From contig OX597827.1 of the NCBI GenBank assembly GCA_951406725.2, positions 12,958,001 through 13,022,000 of the forward strand: a DNA stretch of 64,000 nt. The letters run 5' to 3'. The stretch is from Octopus vulgaris (taxonomy: Eukaryota). Positions 9,201 to 60,620 of this stretch are shown here, piece after piece. The notes beneath the pieces are model-generated. The model was not told where the DNA came from. It saw nothing but the letters and a program-made list of their open reading frames with translations, and searched no databases. Both the position numbers and the translations under genes were made by a program. Every line of letters starts with the position of its first letter. Position 1 is the first letter of the stretch.

Positions 9201-9724
9201 CAGAAAAAAGATGGTATAGGCACACACCAGAAAAGGTCACAGAAAACGAGTAAGCAACCATACTCTGGGATATGCCGATACACACAGATAGAGAAATTAA
9301 GGCCAACAGACCAGATATAGTTGTCAGAGATCATGAAGAAAAAAAATGCTTTCTAATTGATGTATCAATACCGGCAGATGACAACATGTCTCTAAAAGAA
9401 ATGGAGAAACTCTCAAAATACAAAGACCTGGAAATAGAGGTAACTAGAATGTGGAACCTGAAAACAGAAACAATTCCTATCATAGTAGGTGCATTAGGCA
9501 TGATAAAAAAATATTCAGACAAATACATAACAAAAACACCAGGACTTACAAACACATATAACATACAGAAAATTGCACTACTAGGCACTGCACACATCCT
9601 ACGCAGAACACTTTCCATACAATAACCATCAGAGCATCACAACAAATCACAGCACATACCCAAGGCACACAGAGCTGCGCTTGGTAGTGAAGTGAAAGCA
9701 CGCTATAAAAATAAAACTACTGAA
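9200..9724 (+). mobile_element. R4/Dong-clade LINE 3' end with PD-(D/E)xK endonuclease
   Basis: ORF 9272-9625 ANRPDIVV...LIDVSIP...EKLSKYKDLEIE...PIIVGALG; (TAA)n on both sides, consistent with Dong-type TAA targeting. Confidence 0.9.
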
Positions 9725-16475: not shown

Positions 16476-17155
<680 letters not shown>

Positions 17156-17329
17156 TATATATATATATATAAGCCTTTTTGCTTTGTTAGTTTTTCATTT
17201 TGGATTTTTGGATTATTTAACCACCACCCTTTTCCTGGGTTAGAAAACAAAGCATGGTTTGATACTGTTTTCTTGACATATTTCTTCAAGTTCTTTATGT
17301 TATGATTTCGAATTCTGCCAAATATACAA

Positions 17330-29437: not shown

Positions 29438-30177
29438 TAGGCGCAGGAGTGGCTGTGTGGTAAGTAGCTTGCTAACCAACCACATGGTTCTGGGTTCAGT
29501 CCCACTGCGTGGCATCTTGGGCAAGTGTCTTCTGCTATAGCCCCGGGCCAACCAATGCCCTGTGAGTGGATTTGGTAGACGGAAACTGAAAGAAGCCTGT
29601 CGTATATATGTATATATATGTATGTGTATGTATGTGTTTGTGTGTCTGTGTTTGTCCCCCTAGCATTGCTTGACAACCGATGCTGGTGTGTTTACGTCCC
29701 TGTAACTTAGCCGTTCGGCAAAAAAGAGACCGATAGAATAAGTACTGTTTCTCTTACTCTTTCTCTCTTTTACTTGTTTCAGTCATTTGACTGCGGCCAT
29801 GCTGGAGCACCGCCTTTAGTCGAGCAAATCGATCCCGGGACTTATTCTTTTGTAAGCCCAGTACTTATTCTATCGGTCTCTTTTTGCCGAAACCGCTAAG
29901 TAACGGGGACATAAACACACCAGCATCAGTTGTCAAGCAATGCTAGGGGGACAAACACAGACACACAAACATATACACACACATACATACATACATATAT
30001 ATACATATATACGACAGGCTTCTTTCAGTTTCCGTCTACCAAATCCACTCACAAGGCATTGGTCGGCCCGAGGCTATAGCAAGAAGACACTTGCCCAAGA
30101 TGCCACGCAGTGGGACTGAACCCGGAACCATGTGGTTGGTAGGCAAGCTACTTACCACACAGCCACTCCTGCGTCTA
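29438..30177. mobile_element. Two SINE A copies in tail-to-tail inverted arrangement
   Basis: + copy 29438-29746 (3' truncated) abuts - copy 29747-30177. Confidence 0.9.
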
Positions 30178-30848
30178 TTTAGCTCTTAACTCAATGTATG
30201 AATGAAATTGCAACCAGCACTTCTAACAGTAGACTATCGAATACTACTTTCCTACATTGGTGTGTATAGCAGTACAATGATTCTCAGTATAAATAGCTGA
30301 TAATGTTGGATGATAGCTAGATGCGAACTAAATATTTTACTATACTTTCAGTCTGGTGACATACCGAAAATCTACTGAGGAATAAACACATTTATTCATC
30401 CCATATTGTACTTTACATTTCAGCTAAGCTTTCGTTCTGTTTAGGGAATTACAGAGAATTTCTTTAAGCGTTGATAAATTATTCTGTGAAATTGTTCTCG
30501 GGCAAAAGTCATATAAAGTATTCTTAATAAAATTATGCAAGTGTGTTTCAGTTTTATGGAACAATATATTCATTCTGTTTTTGTAAGACGTGCATTTTTA
30601 ACCTCTTCAGAGCTTGCCACCAACTATCTTCTGTGCATTGTCTAAGATATTCCAATCATTGTCAAAGGTCAAGGGATGAAAATAGTGTTCAAAATAGAAA
30701 CAAACAGGTTTAACACAGACATAAATTATCTGTAACCTTTATGTCCCAAGCCAATAATGCACAAATTCATCTAGCCAGAAATGTTCATAGCATCATTCAT
30801 ACTGTTCAATATGTCAGTCAGTGAATGGTTGTTCATATTTTCACTGAT

Positions 30849-30859
30849 TTTTAGTTTCT

Positions 30860-30901
<42 letters not shown>

Positions 30902-30999
30902 AGAAACTAAAAATATATATATATATATTTATATATATATATATATAATTGTTAGTGGAAACATACATTAGATACAAAGGCAAACAAAGAGAGAAAGAA

Positions 31000-31039
<40 letters not shown>

Positions 31040-31093
31040 TTCTTTCTCTCTTTGTTTTGCCTTTGTATCTAATGTGTGTTTCCACTAACAATT
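30849..31093. repeat. Two (TA)n-centred palindromes (30849-30913 and 30947-31093)
   Basis: tttttagtttctct/agagaaactaaaaa arms; aattgttagtggaaac...gaagc/gcttc...gtttccactaacaatt arms. Confidence 0.85.
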
Positions 31094-38519: not shown

Positions 38520-39077
38520 TTCAACATCCTTGCCGAACGCCAGACTGTATTTCGGAGGGTTCCAACACTTCACCGTACACGCGTACGCGGGATCTTGTTG
38601 AGTGGTAACAAGCTTTGATAAGATTGAGAAGTTTTGGTGGGATACCATCTGCCTGCAACACCTTCAAGAGGGTGTCACGATCGACGGAGTCGAATGCAGC
38701 AGCAAAATCAACTGAGCAGATAACTGTTTTTTGCTGAAAGCACCAACGGTATTCGAGGATTTGTCTTAGGGTGAAGATTTGATTGGTGCAGCCTTGATTT
38801 GGATGGAAACCACACTGGTTTGGTCTTGTTCTAGAGTCACATTCTCATTGGAATCGTCTCAGAAGAATAGATGCAAATATTTTGGCGGAAATGTCAATCA
38901 TACTGATGCCATGGTAGTGGCTGTAGCAGCGTTTATCACCTTTCTTAAAGAAAGGTACCAGTGTCGCGTCGCCCAAGTCTTGGGGGAGGGTTTCCGTATC
39001 CCAAACCCGGGTGATAACTTGATGAATCGCGTGCCCCAGTATATTTGCACTATGCTTGAGGATCTCAACAGGAATGT
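38520..39077 (-). mobile_element. RTE-clade LINE reverse-transcriptase fragment (pseudogenised)
   Basis: IPVEILK...LVPFFKKGD...YHGISM...KIF, stop, then QCGF...QIFTLRQILE...VDFAAAFDSVDR. Confidence 0.9.
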
Positions 39078-39580
39078 TATACAATTGTTTCATCATTAAT
39101 AAATTAAGTAATTTTACTTACATAAATATCTTAGAATCTTCAGTAGAGTACGTCAAAAATATAATTTGTCGAACTGCACGGCAAATATCAACACAAGGTT
39201 TAGAGAGAGATGCACAGTTCAGTCGATTATATTCACAGTTACATTCAAATGCTCTTGTTCTGGCATGCTAAATTACCGGATATAAATACTGCATAAGTAA
39301 TTTACTGCCGGTGATATTTGCCGTGCAGTTCAACAAATTATATTTTTGACGTATTCTACTGAAGATTCTAAGATATTTATGTAAGTAAAATTACATAATT
39401 TATTAATGATGAAACAATTCTATAGGGTTAATCTATATTTTCGTTATTTTTCATTTGTCCTGCTCGCTTACGTTTTTGATGTGTTGAATTATTACTTGAG
39501 AACAATTTTTAGTGGTGGATTCCCTTTGCGGATCTATATCTAGCATAAGAACGTCCACATAGTGGATTCTCTCTTATAGT
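39078..39580 (+). mobile_element. HHR-bearing element with 5' inverted duplication (arms 39078-39190 and 39312-39424) plus 3' extension
   Basis: Inverted arms of about 113 bp, each with CTGAAGA...GAAACAATT(G/C)TA; same family as 23200-23663. Confidence 0.75.
39353..39428 (+). ncRNA. Type I hammerhead ribozyme, degenerate (mirror copy at 39078-39149 on -)
   Basis: ATTCTA-CTGAAGA-ttc...gat-GAAA-CAATTC-TA-TAGGGT; helix I pairs, helix II weak, helix III has one mismatch in the + copy but is intact in the - copy. Confidence 0.65.
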
Positions 39581-39646: not shown

Positions 39647-40268
39647 TATATTAATTATATTTATATTATTTGTTATTTATGTATTGGTTTATGTCTATCA
39701 CTGTTTGAGTTGCATAATAGTGTTTTTATCTCTAATTCATATTATACATATATATATATATGTATATATAATCAGGTTATCATCAACTTACAGCCTATCT
39801 GACTTACGACTGATCAACATCACGATGATTTGTGCACCAGCTCATGTTAGCAATAATAAATAGTCCAGTTGAAATCTATTGGGTTTAATTTCTTAGAAAT
39901 TAACCTGTCTATGGATGATATCAGCTAACAGATGCTTCCCTGTAGTTTGGTTATCAATTGCCACATGGTTATTCCAAGTGCTGGATGGATATCCAGTCAC
40001 AGAGACATTGAGGCAACCTCGTATTTGTTCATAAGACAACTGCTTGAAGCTCAGAAATTTTCACTAACTCCAGAATAATAGTATAATATAGAATGCTGTG
40101 TGTGAGTTTTACCTGAGAATGTCCCTTAAGAGCCTAAAAATACAAAACAAAGCTATATAGGCCTATAGGCCTATTGACTTATGACTAGTCATTCGGAACC
40201 AATTGCAGTCGTAAATCGACAACAACAGGTACATATATATATTTATATATATATATATATATATATAT

Positions 40269-40762
40269 ACGTGAAGTATATTAGCCATCTCAATATGGCT
40301 AAGCACTAAGGGTGGGTGTTACTGTAGCTTTTAGCCCCAGGAGATCATCGTCTCCAGCTGGCTTTAGGCACACTTTCTGTGGCCTTATGGTATTTGCAAA
40401 GGGAGGTCATCCCTCTCTCGTCAACCTAAGTGATACGCACGGACTGCAATTTCTAGGTATTTGCCTGTCTTCGGCGTATGGCGTTCGAAAACCGGTGATT
40501 GCCGTACGCTGAAGACAAGCAAATACCTAGAAACTGCAGTCCGTGCGAATCACTTAGGTTGACGAGAGAGGGATGACCTCCCTTTGCAAATACCATAAGG
40601 GCATAGAAAGTGTGCCTAAAGCCAGCTGGAGACGATGATCTCCTGGGGCTAAAAGCTACAGTAACACCCACCCTTAGTGGTTAGCCATGGTGAGATGGCT
40701 AGTATACTTCACGTTGTCGAGCAGTTACTGTTTACATCTCGTTCAGATATTTATTGTTGCTT
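40269..40762 (+). mobile_element. 446-bp palindrome (214-bp arms, 18-nt spacer) plus 48-bp tail in (TA)n; HHR-bearing Penelope-like element
   Basis: Arms 40269-40482 and 40501-40714; tail gagcagttactgttta...atttatt shared with 60577-60620. Confidence 0.8.
40503..40547 (+). ncRNA. Minimal type I hammerhead ribozyme, predicted GUC cleavage after 40541 (mirror copy 40436-40480 on -)
   Basis: CGTACG-CTGAAGA-caag-caaata-ccta-GAAA-CTGCAG-TC-CGTGCG; helix II is better paired (AGG/CCT) in the mirror copy. Confidence 0.75.
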
Positions 40763-40767
40763 ATATA

Positions 40768-41185
40768 TATATATAATTATAACAATAAGGGTTTAGCAAC
40801 AAGTTGCTTGACCACATACCAAAAATTTTAGAAATAGCTATTTCTTTTTTCTACAAAAATATGTCTCCATGCGTTCATAATTAATCGAAGACTGTTTGAT
40901 TTCATTATTTTTCTTCTTCTTCATTGCCATGTGTGAGTTACAAATATTGTTATCTGTGGAGACATATTTTTGTAGAAAAAAGAAATAGCAGACTTTTGGC
41001 TGCTATTTCTAAAATCTTCAGCATGTGGTCAAGCAACTTGTTGCTAAACCCTTATTGTTATAATTATATATAAAAAAACTTTTTGTACAAGTTTTTACCG
41101 ACTATGGTCCTTTTCCATACCGAAAAACTACTAGGTGAAATTTGTTAATTTTATTAAATTAATAATTATTTACCCAAATCTGTAA
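40768..41185 (+). mobile_element. (TA)n-embedded palindrome-plus-tail element
   Basis: Inverted arms agggtttagcaacaagttgcttgaccaca.../...tgtggtcaagcaacttgttgctaaaccct; tail ggtccttttccataccgaa...ggtgaaatt shared with 58168-58450. Confidence 0.75.
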
Positions 41186-41540
41186 CCGCCTTTAGTCGAG
41201 CAAATCGACCCCGGGACTTATTCTTTGTAAGCCCAGTACTTATTCTATCGGTCTCTTTTGCCGAACCGCTAAGTGATGGGGACGTAAACACACCAGCATC
41301 GGTTGTCAAGCAATGCTAGAGGGACAAACACAGACACACAAACATATACACACACACTTATATATATATACATATATACGACAGGCTTCTTTCAGTTTCC
41401 GTCTACCAAATCCACTCACAAGGCATTGGTCGGCCCGGGGCTATAGCAGAAGACACTTGGCCAAGATGCCACGCAGTGGGACTGAACCCGGAACCATGTG
41501 GTTGGTTAGCAAGCTACTTACCACACAGCCACTCCTGCAC
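41186..41540 (-). mobile_element. 3'-truncated SINE A flanked by 55-bp direct repeats
   Basis: 41131-41185 vs 41541-41595, 3 mismatches. Confidence 0.85.
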
Positions 41541-42489: not shown

Positions 42490-43208
42490 TTGTAAATCTG
42501 TGCATCTGAACACGTGTGAACACGGGTATGCACATATGCAATTTACACGTACGTAAAATTACGTAGATGTTCACTTAAACAGATAGCAAAGCAACCGTAT
42601 ATTCGAAATCATAAAATATGCATTAGAATTTCAAATAACATAATAGATTCTGTGAACTAGACGTGAATAATGAAATTCCATGCTAATATTTTTCTCAGAT
42701 CACAAAAGCTTAGTTTGGATTTAGCACAGCCTTCATTATGCACTATTGTTCATCATTTGGCATTAAGAAAATATAAAAGAAAGTATTACAAATTTAGAAT
42801 TATGAAATGAAATTTCTAAAATACTACAAATGCAAATTAATATGCAATTTGATAATAATAATATCATAATGTTATAACACTTTCATGTTAAGAATTTATG
42901 AGATCTAAGGGAAAATGCCTTCATTAAACATTTTATATAATCCTCCAGTAATTGAATTCTAAGTTCTTCATAATTCATGGCATAAATCTCTCATTAGGGT
43001 AGGTTTTCAAATTGGAAATTTCAAATTTACATACGCTGAACAGTATTGAGTTTATATTATTTTTTTCCCCACTCAAAATCTGAATCCAAATGTGTGAGGA
43101 AAATCACATTATTTCCATACCCTTAAATAAGCACATTCATTTAGTATGAAACATCATCAAGAAAAGGACAGGTCCATATATATATATATAAAGATATATA
43201 TATATATA

Positions 43209-43630
43209 TGCAGGAGTGGCTGTGTGGTAAGTAGCTTGTTTACCAACCACATAGTTCCGGGTTCAGTCCCACTGCGTGGCACCTTGGTCAAGTGTCTTCT
43301 ACTATAGCCTCGGGCCGACCAAAGCCTTGTGAGTGGATTTGGTAGACGGAAACTGAAAGAAGCCTGTCCTATATATGTATATGTATGTGTGTGTGTGTGT
43401 GTGTTTGTGTGTGTGTGTTTGTGTGTCTGTGTTTGTCCCCCTAGCATTGCTTGACAACCGATGCTGGTGTGTTTATGTCCCCGTTACTTAGCAGTTCGGC
43501 AAAAGAGACCGATAGAATAAGTACTGGGCTTACAAAGAATAAGTCTCGGGGTCGATTTGCTCGACCAAAGGCGGTGCTCCAGCATGGCCGCAGTCAAATG
43601 GCTGAAACAAGTAAAAGAGTAAAAGAGAGA
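43209..43630 (+). mobile_element. SINE family A
   Basis: Family homology. Confidence 0.9.
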
Positions 43631-46183: not shown

Positions 46184-46527
46184 CTGTTGTGTCTGGGGAG
46201 AGTCATTTTCTTTTTGTGCCTTATTATTTAACACACTCACCAGTAAAATTTCCACTTTTTTCTTATTTTTATTTTCCTAAAATTTTTGTTGCGTGTTGCA
46301 ACCTTTTCAATAGTTTTGACTTTGTCTGTTATTTACACTGCATTCCCTTTTGTTTGTTTGCGCGCATGTGTGGGTCAGTAAAAATAAGAAAAAAGTGGAA
46401 ATTTTACCGGTGAGTGTGTTAAATAATAAGGCAGAAAAAGAAAATGACTCTCCCCAGACACAACAGAATATGCTTCAACACACGAACTCATATAAAGAAT
46501 CTTGCAAACCAAATCCAAAAACGAAAT
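46184..46527. mobile_element. Inverted-repeat element (arms about 88 bp, 46184-46466) with a possible 61-bp tail
   Basis: ctgttgtgtctggggagagtcattttc.../...gaaaatgactctccccagacacaacag; ataaagccagaac at 46172-46184 and 46528-46540. Confidence 0.75.
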
Positions 46528-51214: not shown

Positions 51215-51595
51215 CATGTATGTATGAATAAAATATTATGTAATGAGAAATGTGTATGTATGTATATATATATATAAATGTGTATATGTGTGTGTGTGTG
51301 TATCACGCATGTGTTAAAATTTCAAATAAAGCTTCGTAGGATGAAGTTTCATAGGATGTACTGCAACTGAATCAACAAAATGTACGCAAATGCTACTTCA
51401 AAGGAAATTAGGACGCTTATCCGGCAGAAACATGTGTTGGATTCGAACTTAATGAGAATAATACAGTAATTAACAAATTTTTGTGGATACGTAACTGTCC
51501 ATTCTTCGTTATGATGTCTTGAGTATAAACTTTCTAGGCTGTCTGAGATCCAATGAAGTGAAGTCATGATTTACATCCCAAGAGAAGTACTAAGG

Positions 51596-52425
51596 GGGTG
51601 AGCTGGCAGAAACGTTAGCACACTGAGCAAAACGCTTAGTGGTACATCGTCTGCCGTTACGTTCTGAGTTCAAATTCCGCCGAGGTCGACTTTGCCTTTC
51701 ATCCTTTCGAGGTCGATTAAATAAGTACCTATTTCTTTACTACCTACAAGGGGCTAAACACAGGGAGGACAAATAAGGACAGGCAAATGGATTAAGTCGA
51801 TTATATCGACCCCAGTGCGTAACTGGTACTTATTTAATCGACCCCGAAAGGATGAAAGGCAAAGTCGACCTTGGCGGAATTTGAACTCAGAACGTAGCGG
51901 CAGACGAAACACCGCAAAGCATTTCTCCCAGCGTGCTAACGTTTCTGCCAGCTCACCGCCGATTAAATAAGTACCACTTACGCACTGGGGACGATATAAT
52001 CGACTTAATTCGTTTGTCTGTCCTTGTTTGTCCCATCTGTGTTTAGCCCCTTGTGGGTAGTAAAGAAATAGGTATTTCGTCTGTCTTTACGTTCTGAGTT
52101 CAAATTCCGCCGAGGTCGACTTTGCCTTTCATCCTTTCGAGGTCGATTAAATAAGTACCAGTTACGCACTGGGGACGATATAATCGACTTAATCCGTTTG
52201 TCTGTACTCGTTTGTCCTCTCTGTGTTTAGCCCCTTGTGGGTAGTAAAGAAATAGGTATTTCATCTGTCGCTACGTTCTGAATTCAAATTCCGCCAAAGT
52301 CGACTTGGCCTTTCATCTTTTCGGGGTTGATAAATTAAGTACCAGTTGCGTACTGGGGTCGATCTAATCAACTGCCCCTCCACTCCTCCAAAATTTCAGG
52401 CCTTATGCCTGGAATAGGAAAGAAT
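51596..52425 (+). mobile_element. SINE B tandem array with an antisense SINE B (51730-51960) nested inside
   Basis: gattaaataagtacc duplicated at 51715-51729 and 51961-51975. Confidence 0.9.
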
Positions 52426-56882: not shown

Positions 56883-57431
56883 TTATATATATATACATAT
56901 ATATATATATTTATAGGGGGGAATTCATGAAAAAAACAAAAGACGAAGACAGGTGGTGTATATATATATACAGACATATATGCATATATTATATTTCCTA
57001 TTATTATATTATTATATATTTCCTACATATTATAGTGCCTCTTTGAAATATGTACATTGCTGAAAGTCTGCTTGTCTGCTAAAGTGTGACATTTGTCTTG
57101 AGATAGTATCACTTATAGACATGTAGTGATAAAAGTCACAGAAATACATGAGAAGTAAACAAAAGTCACCTAGCTGCAGTAGTGACATTGATGAATGCAT
57201 CTTTAGACTTTGTCAATACCAAGTATCCACTAACAATACCATGTTAAGATTAAATTCAGTGTCTATTGATATAGAAAGGCAGTGATTGGAAAAAAAATCA
57301 TTGATTTTGCAATTAGTATACCTATTTAACAATGACTGTTAGAAGAAAGAATACTCAGTACGATAGGAGAGATAAATTATATTTTTACTTCAGTTGAATC
57401 AGTCAATTGATACTCTGAGTTTTGCCTGTGG

Positions 57432-57896
57432 GTGCAGAGGGCCTTCGGGCAAGCTCTAACTTGGTCACATCATGGTCTCAAAAATTTGTCCTACGAAGAA
57501 AGGCTGAGGACGCTCGACCTTTATTCTCTTGAAAAACGCCGCCGCCGTGGTGATCTCATTCTCGCCCACAACATCATAAGCGGAAAGTGTAACCTCTCAA
57601 AAGAGCTATTCTTCACTCCTGCTCCAGAGTGTCGGCTGCGGGGTCATTCCGAAAAGCTCTACCTGCGACGATTTCATATCAATCGAAGGAGAGGAGCTTT
57701 CTCCGTCCGGGTTGCGGAACAAGCTGCCAGACGAGATGGTGAAGATGCCGACGACCGCTTTGTTCAAAGCCTCCCTGGACCTCAAGTGGCCTGAACTCTT
57801 TACATGAACACCACCCTGTACTTAACTCCATGTCTCCCTACATGGCCTTGCTATAATGCTTTTGAGCCAAATTAACTAACTAACTAACTAACTAAC
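57432..57896 (+). mobile_element. CR1-clade LINE 3' end, second subfamily, (CTAA)n tail
   Basis: GLKNLSYEERLRTLDLYSLEKRRRRGDLI...LRGH...FSVRV. Confidence 0.9.
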
Positions 57897-58135: not shown

Positions 58136-58167
58136 TGCATGTATATATATATATATATATACATATA

Positions 58168-58450
58168 TACTTAATAATTAGGGTTCAACAAATATTTGCT
58201 TTACCACATACCGAAGTTTAGAAATAGCAGCCAAAAAACCTTAGCTTCTACTTTAAAAGTAGAAGAAATAGCTAAGGTTTTTTGGCTGCTATTTCTAAAC
58301 TGTGGTATGTGGTAAAGCAAATCTTTGCTGAACCCTAATTATTAAGTATTACTTAAGTTTACCGTGAAACGGTCCTTTTTTCATGCCGAATTCTACTTGG
58401 TGAAATTATTGATTACTTCTTAATTAATTAATTTTACCCTTTGTTATTAT
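58168..58450 (+). mobile_element. (TA)n-embedded palindrome (58168-58349) plus tail; family of 40768-41185
   Basis: tacttaataattagggttca.../...tgaaccctaattattaagta arms, then shared tail. Confidence 0.8.
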
Positions 58451-60439: not shown

Positions 60440-60620
60440 TAATATAAGCGGGGCCAGCCATCTGAATGTGGCTAGGGACAGGGCGGGGTGGTGGGGGTGT
60501 TACTGATGCATTTCAGTAACACCCCCACCACCGCCCTGTCCCTAGCCACATTCAGATGGTTGGCCCGCTTATATTACAGAGCAGTTACTGTTTATACCTC
60601 GCTTAGAGATTTATTATTAT
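60440..60620 (+). mobile_element. Short palindrome (60440-60576) plus tail in (TA)n; diverged relative of 40269-40762
   Basis: Shared agccatct.aat.tggcta, gggtgttactg and tail gagcagttactgttta..ctcg...aga.atttatt. Confidence 0.8.

What the first reader, a model, noticed from the sequence alone, without database searches (positions are those of the whole stretch)
40269..40762. 446-bp hairpin with head-to-head ribozymes at its apex
Arms of 214 bp diverge from an 18-nt spacer, each starting with a minimal HHR, and only the right arm carries a 48-bp tail. The two HHR copies have complementary defects (the left has core and helix III changes, the right a weaker helix II), so the consensus is close to canonical. 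The twin ORFs MGVTVAFSPRR on opposite strands are a by-product. This matches the inverted-pLTR plus tail structure known for Penelope-like insertions.
Basis: partly seen in the sequence, partly recalled or inferred. Interest (0 to 1): 0.7.

Follow-up and report, generated by a model that had tools for sequence, protein, structure and literature searches.

The report
Head-to-head Penelope retroelement stub with hammerheads
The hairpin is real: it is two shortened copies of a high-copy repeat joined head to head in a TA run, likely an inert scrap left by Penelope-like jumping-gene machinery in a pattern already described, with one open point: its predicted ribozyme looks more like those of non-coding retrozymes.

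Summary
Observation confirmed: 214-bp arms (11 mismatches), 18 nt apart, a 46-48-nt tail on one side, (TA)n on both sides, and a type-I hammerhead motif in each arm (0 of 20,000 shuffles; no Rfam hit). Public runs hold thousands of related contigs under three organism labels. The family continues 5' of the apex, so 16 of the 18 'spacer' bases are element sequence and the apex is where two copies were cut short. A related element at 60440-60617 has the same inverted-arms-plus-tail build but no hammerhead, so ribozymes at the apex are incidental. The arms carry 5 and 6 private changes, likely later decay. This is the published Penelope-like (PLE) insertion signature; opposite-strand hammerhead pairs were reported in 2014. 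Corrections: the motif is built like a canonical type-I hammerhead (6-bp helix I, internal loop, the loop 2 of the Schistosoma ribozyme), not a minimal one, and it keeps a C.A mismatch at the base of helix II. No RT/endonuclease ORF could be linked, so autonomous PLE end versus retrozyme-like passenger is open. Cleavage untested. Ordinary; interest low.

The parts
40233..40268 (.). (TA)n run on the left, likely the insertion target
40269..40482 (-). Left arm: 5'-truncated copy without tail; begins 2 nt before helix I of the hammerhead
40436..40480 (-). Left hammerhead motif, with U4C, C15.2U and a helix I change; lacks the 5' strand of the outer helix
40483..40484 (.). 2-nt junction filler (does not match the family's upstream letters)
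   Evidence: tables 5c, 7, 8: contigs align from 40485 and carry other letters before it
40485..40714 (+). Right arm: 5'-truncated copy, 16 nt longer at its 5' end (40485-40500 is most of the 'spacer')
40495..40553 (+). Right type-I hammerhead motif: outer helix 40495-99/40549-53, internal loop, helix I 40503-08/40542-47, core 40509-15 and 40530-33, helix II with 6-nt loop 40520-25, palindromic helix III 40533-40; predicted cut between 40541 and 40542
40715..40762 (+). One-sided tail, 46-48 nt, shared with the related element at 60577-60617
40762..40775 (.). (TA)n run on the right, shared with the end of a neighbouring inverted-repeat element
60440..60617 (.). Second, diverged family member with the same build: arms 60440-60506 and 60513-60576, 6 nt apart, about 41-nt tail on the right only, (TA)n on both sides, no hammerhead
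   Evidence: nhmmer E 6e-8

Best explanation
The hairpin is two 5'-truncated copies of one high-copy, hammerhead-bearing repeat joined head to head inside a TA run, likely laid down in a single insertion by the reverse transcriptase and endonuclease of a Penelope-like element (PLE) and likely inert since. Shown: inverted arms, one-sided tail, TA flanks, a family that continues 5' of the apex, a second element of the same build with a different apex. Inferred from the in vitro work on an anole PLE (PMC11167929): the protein cuts both strands of AT-rich DNA and primes reverse transcription at two neighbouring sites inside the RNA, so one cDNA carries the tail and the other does not. Inferred here: both cDNAs stopped early, near the structured hammerhead, and their ends were joined with a 2-nt filler. 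Both copies run 57 and 41 nt past the predicted cut site, so the template was uncut or re-ligated there. In a read-through transcript the arms are predicted to pair with each other, which would keep either ribozyme from folding. Whether the template was the pLTR of a coding PLE (my odds about 0.55) or a non-coding passenger (about 0.3) is not settled.
For: laid 3429, 1592, 2200 and 192 contigs (4 of 4 runs, three organism labels). 18 contigs in X1 and 16 in X6 run on 5' of 40485 into other letters (consensus agreement 0.7 and 0.59). 7 of 9 listed joints change strand, each at a different pair of places. Loose ends with long AT-rich, poorly agreeing flanks start at 40709 (15 contigs) and 40755 (9 contigs) in X6, i.e. 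at the short end and the tail end. At 5 of the 11 arm differences the run majority has the left letter; at the other 6 no listed row overturns the right letter. At 40710 both arms share a letter that the majority lacks (57-94% of depth), pointing to one template. No listed variant falls in the catalytic core, while loop 2 varies. Second element. Literature: inverted 5'-truncated copy, 30-40-bp one-sided tail and (TA)n bias (PMC8557442); head-to-head pLTRs (PMC3846280); opposite-strand hammerhead pairs 100-700 bp apart (PMC4209133); two RT start sites define the tail and uncut RNA is the main substrate (PMC11167929). Whole-locus fold -422 and -405 kcal/mol.
Against: No RT/GIY-YIG ORF was linked: no genome is held and four collection scans gave three blanks and one chance match. 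The tail (46-48 nt) is a little longer than the 30-40 nt in print. No Rfam hammerhead hit. No TSD can be read in a TA run. The joints rest on one contig per run, at likeness 80, and their direction (head-to-head or tail-to-tail) is not given; 4 variant rows and 437 loose-end rows were not shown. The ribozyme differs from the PLE min-HHR consensus (helix II 7-8 bp, helix I 4-5 bp). The three short motifs tried were absent from the PLE consensus file of PMC8557442.
Confidence: 0.85

Rival explanations
1. Same insertion mechanism, but the template is a small non-coding retrozyme-like RNA (a circle or tandem monomer with a canonical hammerhead) that borrows PLE enzymes. This is a sub-case of the best explanation, not an alternative to it.
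For: Ribozyme build: 6-bp helix I, internal loop, outer helix, 4-position helix II, 2-bp helix III with palindromic loop, as for canonical metazoan hammerheads, the kind found in retrozymes. Loop 2 equals the CAAAUA loop of the Schistosoma ribozyme, and the run majority has a U opening the 3' side of the internal loop and a pyrimidine closing its 5' side, the two residues that make the loop-loop contact there (PMC2632901; placement here inferred). All three sense frames are closed. The majority-edited copy folds better than shuffles (z -2.8). A 25-nt upstream segment seen in other copies pairs with 40565-40594 (-20.7 kcal/mol; 2% of 2000 shuffles as good), which would put the ribozyme at the tip of a long rod.
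Against: No tandem monomer joint is among the 9 listed joints and none in the window. Some PLE hammerheads also have a small palindromic helix III, and a PLE in File S2 of PMC8557442 has the same C.A at the base of helix II. Hydra-clade PLEs carry the hammerhead in a non-coding 3' part about 100-210 nt from the end. Family variants do not spare predicted helices more than chance (11 of 34 break a pair, null mean 13.5, P 0.21).
Confidence: 0.3
2. One copy inserted first and the mirror arm was made later by fold-back DNA repair or replication, or by an assembly error.
For: AT-rich, repeat-dense region with several other hairpins; locus junctions not checked in reads.
Against: Both arms have private changes (5 and 6) against the family majority, which an assembly fold-back would not give; the left arm stops at the family's short 3' end, and the second element repeats the same asymmetry.
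Confidence: 0.07
3. A fold-back DNA transposon (MITE) with long terminal inverted repeats and a TA target.
For: Long inverted repeats, TA on both sides, high copy number.
Against: One-sided tail; family continues through the apex; the apex differs by about 150 nt between the two window elements; hammerhead core kept in the family.
Confidence: 0.04
4. A host hairpin-RNA gene (siRNA/miRNA precursor or paired-ribozyme switch).
For: Very stable predicted duplex; sub-threshold miRNA-family scores that any long hairpin gives; one run guessed to be RNA holds family contigs.
Against: Scattered private changes hit the left core and the right helix II; the two motifs lie on opposite strands and cannot dimerise within one transcript; nothing ties the RNA-guess contigs to this locus.
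Confidence: 0.04

Closest known systems
Insertion units of endonuclease-positive Penelope-like elements (inverted 5'-truncated copy, pLTR, one-sided tail; PMC8557442, PMC3846280, PMC11167929)
   Same: Head-to-head truncated copies, tail on one end only, (TA)n target, hammerhead about 200 nt from the 3' end, no readable TSD.
   Different: No ORF linked; tail 46-48 nt against 30-40 nt; clade unknown. The hammerhead differs from that of Hydra-1_Obim, the octopus Hydra-clade family in File S2.
Opposite-strand dual min-HHRs of truncated PLEs in Schistosoma (PMC4209133)
   Same: Two type-I hammerheads close together on opposite strands.
   Different: Here about 30 nt apart core to core rather than 100-700 bp; helix I/II sizes and loop 2 are canonical-like, not minimal.
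Metazoan non-LTR retrozymes (PMC7229834; bioRxiv 10.64898/2026.07.22.740005)
   Same: Canonical-like type-I hammerhead with palindromic helix III, non-coding, structured, high copy.
   Different: No head-to-tail monomers seen; monomer length, circular RNA and cleavage not tested; inverted-plus-tail insertions were not mentioned in the parts of those papers that I searched or read.

Membership tests
EN+ Penelope-like element | ORF with telomerase-like RT and GIY-YIG endonuclease in full-length copies | tested here: inconclusive
   No ORF in this stub; no genome; scans blank or chance; one search shows at most 30 letters upstream
EN+ Penelope-like element | 5'-truncated copies with an adjoining inverted copy | tested here: met
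EN+ Penelope-like element | Optional 30-40-bp tail on one end (two 3' termini) | tested here: met
   46-48 nt here, about 41 nt at 60577-60617; two clusters of loose 3' ends
EN+ Penelope-like element | Type-I hammerhead in the terminal repeat | tested here: met
   descriptor hit, 0 of 20,000 shuffles; core unvaried in listed rows; not recognised by Rfam
EN+ Penelope-like element | AT-rich or (TA)n target | tested here: met
   2 of 2 window elements lie in (TA)n
EN+ Penelope-like element | Direct pLTRs in partial tandem around the body | not testable with these tools
   no long copy available
EN+ Penelope-like element | Short TSD | tested here: inconclusive
   masked by TA runs, as noted for such PLEs in PMC8557442
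Non-LTR retrozyme | Canonical type-I hammerhead with loop 1-loop 2 contact residues | tested here: met
   by sequence and predicted structure only; helix II has 3 pairs plus a C.A mismatch
Non-LTR retrozyme | Head-to-tail tandem monomers of 170-400 nt | tested here: inconclusive
   none in the window stretch or among 9 listed joints, but the monomer's 5' part was not in the laid stretch
Non-LTR retrozyme | Self-cleavage and circular RNA | not testable with these tools
   only contigs were served; no raw RNA reads
MITE / fold-back DNA transposon | Symmetric ends and fixed unit | tested here: not met
   one-sided tail; apex varies

The most novel reading that the evidence does not exclude
A very abundant family of retrozyme-like non-coding RNAs with a Schistosoma-type hammerhead that inserts with the full Penelope signature (inverted copy, one-sided tail, TA target). 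That would be direct genomic evidence that animal retrozymes are copied by PLE enzymes using the two-site internal priming, which so far rests on shared ribozymes, co-occurrence and phylogeny, and it would give a small natural substrate for testing PLE trans-mobilisation.
Probability: 0.25. Interest if true: 0.5.

Novelty: new member of a known kind. Interest (0 to 1): 0.2.

Why it matters
As a locus it matters little: it is one of very many stubs of a kind already described. It is a clean example of the PLE inverted-plus-tail signature, with a second copy in the same window showing that the apex is set by truncation. It also shows that templates were copied through the predicted ribozyme cut site. 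The only part that could interest a specialist is the family: if it has no ORF and forms tandem monomers or circles, it would tie retrozymes to PLE machinery by insertion footprint.

Tried and rejected
No genome held. Rfam: no hammerhead hit at gathering or E up to 10; the miRNA-family hits are below threshold and reflect the hairpin. Pattern scans: metagenome contigs 0 and 0, viral contigs 0, prokaryote genomes 1 match, with no likeness beyond the 21-base seed, so chance. No RNA holder listed; X11 is only guessed to be RNA and contigs cannot show expression, strand or editing. Summed contig depth rises from the 5' end towards 40660 in all four runs, as 5' truncation would give, but the tool warns that it is no copy number, so it was not used as evidence. 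Structure-sparing variation: not significant (P 0.21). The predicted lowest-energy fold of the isolated motif is not the hammerhead fold (-8.6 against -14.7 kcal/mol for the majority-edited version), as expected for a motif that needs a dimer or tertiary contacts; helix III homodimer -11.1 (right) and -6.5 (left) kcal/mol. A-to-I editing of the template rejected: only 1 of 11 arm differences is A to G on the sense strand after polarising. Twin ORFs rejected: GTG starts, antisense, produced by the mirror. A pseudoknot between the upstream segment and loop 2 was considered; the segment pairs better downstream. Three short motifs absent from the supplement of PMC8557442 (its sequence lines are wrapped, so a miss is possible). 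Lunse et al. (PMC5785218) is not held. The repeat library of PMC13282606 was not seen (one supplementary document listed, not read); the family may be annotated there or in Repbase/Dfam.

Full report
Observation. The inverted repeat is as described: 40269-40482 and 40501-40714, 214 nt, 18 nt apart, 11 differences. The stretch 40715-40762 has no mirror; its last two bases merge with a TA run. TA runs flank both ends. The window is AT-rich, microsatellite-rich animal-type DNA with LINE fragments and no long ORF other than simple repeats. Its common SINE looks to me like an octopus one; that is recalled and was not tested.

The ribozyme motif. Read away from the apex, the right arm has helix I (40503-08 with 40542-47), the CUGANGA box (40509-15), a hairpin with a 6-nt loop, GAAA (40530-33), a 2-bp helix III with a palindromic 4-nt loop, and UC before the predicted cut at 40541/40542. 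It is the only strict descriptor hit in the window; 20,000 shuffles of the copy and 100 of the window gave none (descriptor fitted after the fact). Rfam does not recognise it. The left copy has U4C, a change said to lower activity considerably in vitro (PMC3088659, passages), and C15.2U. The right copy has lost one helix II pair and the U at 40548.

The family. One search listed 24 runs, 20 holding part of the stretch, none half of its words. I laid 40483-40762 on 4 of them: 3429, 1592, 2200 and 192 contigs under three organism labels. (a) At 5 of the 11 arm differences the majority has the left letter, and at the other 6 no listed row overturns the right letter (4 weaker rows hidden). So each arm has its own 5-6 changes, likely decay after insertion. 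Both arms share a minority letter at 40710, pointing to one template. (b) Between 40504 and 40547 listed variants fall at 40518 (the majority restores the pair), loop 2 (40520, 40521) and 40528-29; none in the core. (c) Contigs align from 40485 and continue upstream into other letters (18 in X1, 16 in X6), so 16 of the 18 spacer bases belong to the right copy and 2 are filler. (d) 7 of 9 listed joints change strand, at different places, one contig per run. (e) Long AT-rich loose ends begin at 40709 and at 40755 in X6, matching a short end and a tail end. All of this is from contigs at likeness 80 and partly shown tables, so it is supportive, not a census.

A second element. 60440-60617 is related (nhmmer E 6e-8; alignment score 83 against a best shuffle of 34 in 500). 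Its arms (about 65 nt, 6 nt apart) end at the same relative place, only the right arm has the tail, and it lies in (TA)n. Its apex is about 150 nt further 3' and it has no hammerhead. The apex is therefore a truncation point, and ribozymes at the apex are incidental.

Mechanism. In PMC11167929 (first two of four parts read) an anole PLE protein, predicted to be a dimer, cuts and extends both strands of AT-rich DNA and starts reverse transcription at two neighbouring internal sites; the sequence between them is the genomic tail; ribozyme cleavage is not needed. Applied here (inference): one cDNA began at the tail end, the other about 46-48 nt further in; both stopped near the structured ribozyme and were joined. 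PMC3846280 (passages) offers self-priming on an antisense template instead; these data cannot choose between them, though a 2-nt filler and a 16-nt offset fit end-joining better than a palindromic snap-back. Both copies include 57 and 41 nt upstream of the predicted cut, so the template was uncut or re-ligated there. At the locus the two motifs are on opposite strands; a transcript through it is predicted to form one long duplex (-422 or -405 kcal/mol), which would block ribozyme folding and could at most feed dsRNA pathways (untested).

Comparison with what is known. Inverted 5'-truncated copies, a 30-40-bp one-sided tail and (TA)n bias are standard for PLEs (PMC8557442: passages, section 11 and parts of its supplement). 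Opposite-strand hammerhead pairs from truncated PLEs were reported in PMC4209133 (first two of four parts). The C.A at the base of helix II, which survives in the family majority, also occurs in PLE-X1_cBra, and U.U occurs at that place in many Hydra-clade PLEs (File S2). The octopus Hydra family listed there has a different ribozyme. PMC6765202 (passages) reviews dimer cleavage through palindromic helix III. PMC13282606 (passages) lists recently active Penelope families in Octopus vulgaris and does not mention ribozymes in its main text.

The open point. The motif is not of the minimal type. It has a 6-bp helix I, an internal loop and an outer helix, and its loop 2 equals that of the Schistosoma ribozyme (first recalled, then confirmed in PMC2632901, passages), with a U and a pyrimidine placed where that ribozyme makes its loop-loop contact (placement inferred). 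Canonical type-I hammerheads in animals mostly belong to non-autonomous retrozymes, for which PLEs are the proposed mobilisers (PMC7229834: passages and sections 14, 17; bioRxiv 10.64898/2026.07.22.740005: first of five parts and passages). The sense frames are closed, the majority-edited copy is more structured than shuffles (z -2.8), and an upstream 25-mer from other copies pairs with 40565-40594 (2% of shuffles as good). Against this, no tandem monomer was seen, variants do not significantly spare helices (P 0.21), and PLE 3' ends can be non-coding. Searches for retrozyme with cephalopod or octopus gave 1 and 2 listings, none describing such a family by title or abstract start; Repbase, Dfam and subscription papers were not searchable.

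Verdict. It works like a PLE insertion; membership as the pLTR of an autonomous PLE is not shown because no ORF was linked. New member of a known kind; interest 0.2. Earlier scan notes report the same stub pattern in other genomes; they are unchecked and were not counted as evidence.

Noticed in passing
window 60440-60617: Second, diverged member of the family with short inverted arms, one-sided tail and TA flanks, no hammerhead.
   Followed up: yes
window 40768-41072: Separate symmetric inverted-repeat element directly right of the finding, arms about 110 bp, about 88 bp apart, ending in TA-rich ends; MITE-like. A related 183-bp pure palindrome lies at 58167-58349.
   Followed up: partly
window 30947-31093 and 30847-30914: Near-perfect palindromes centred on (TA)n runs, with unique-looking arms of about 60 and 20 bp; perhaps fold-backs primed at TA runs.
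   Followed up: no
window 29438-30177, 39078-39424, 46184-46466, 51594-51960: Further inverted-repeat pairs, arms 88-320 bp, about 100-120 bp apart; not examined.
   Followed up: no
runs X5 and X6, places 40529 to 40485: The same 70-nt tandem duplication covering the 5' half of the hammerhead appears in one contig under each of two organism labels.
   Followed up: partly
window 41185-41540, 43204-43575 and others: Abundant SINE-like repeat with an internal CA/TA run, many copies in the window.
   Followed up: no
window 9254-9625, 16643-17194, 38521-38844, 57411-57794, 1830-2174: ORF fragments that read like non-LTR retrotransposon endonuclease or RT pieces (judged by eye, not searched); none looked like a PLE.
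   Followed up: no
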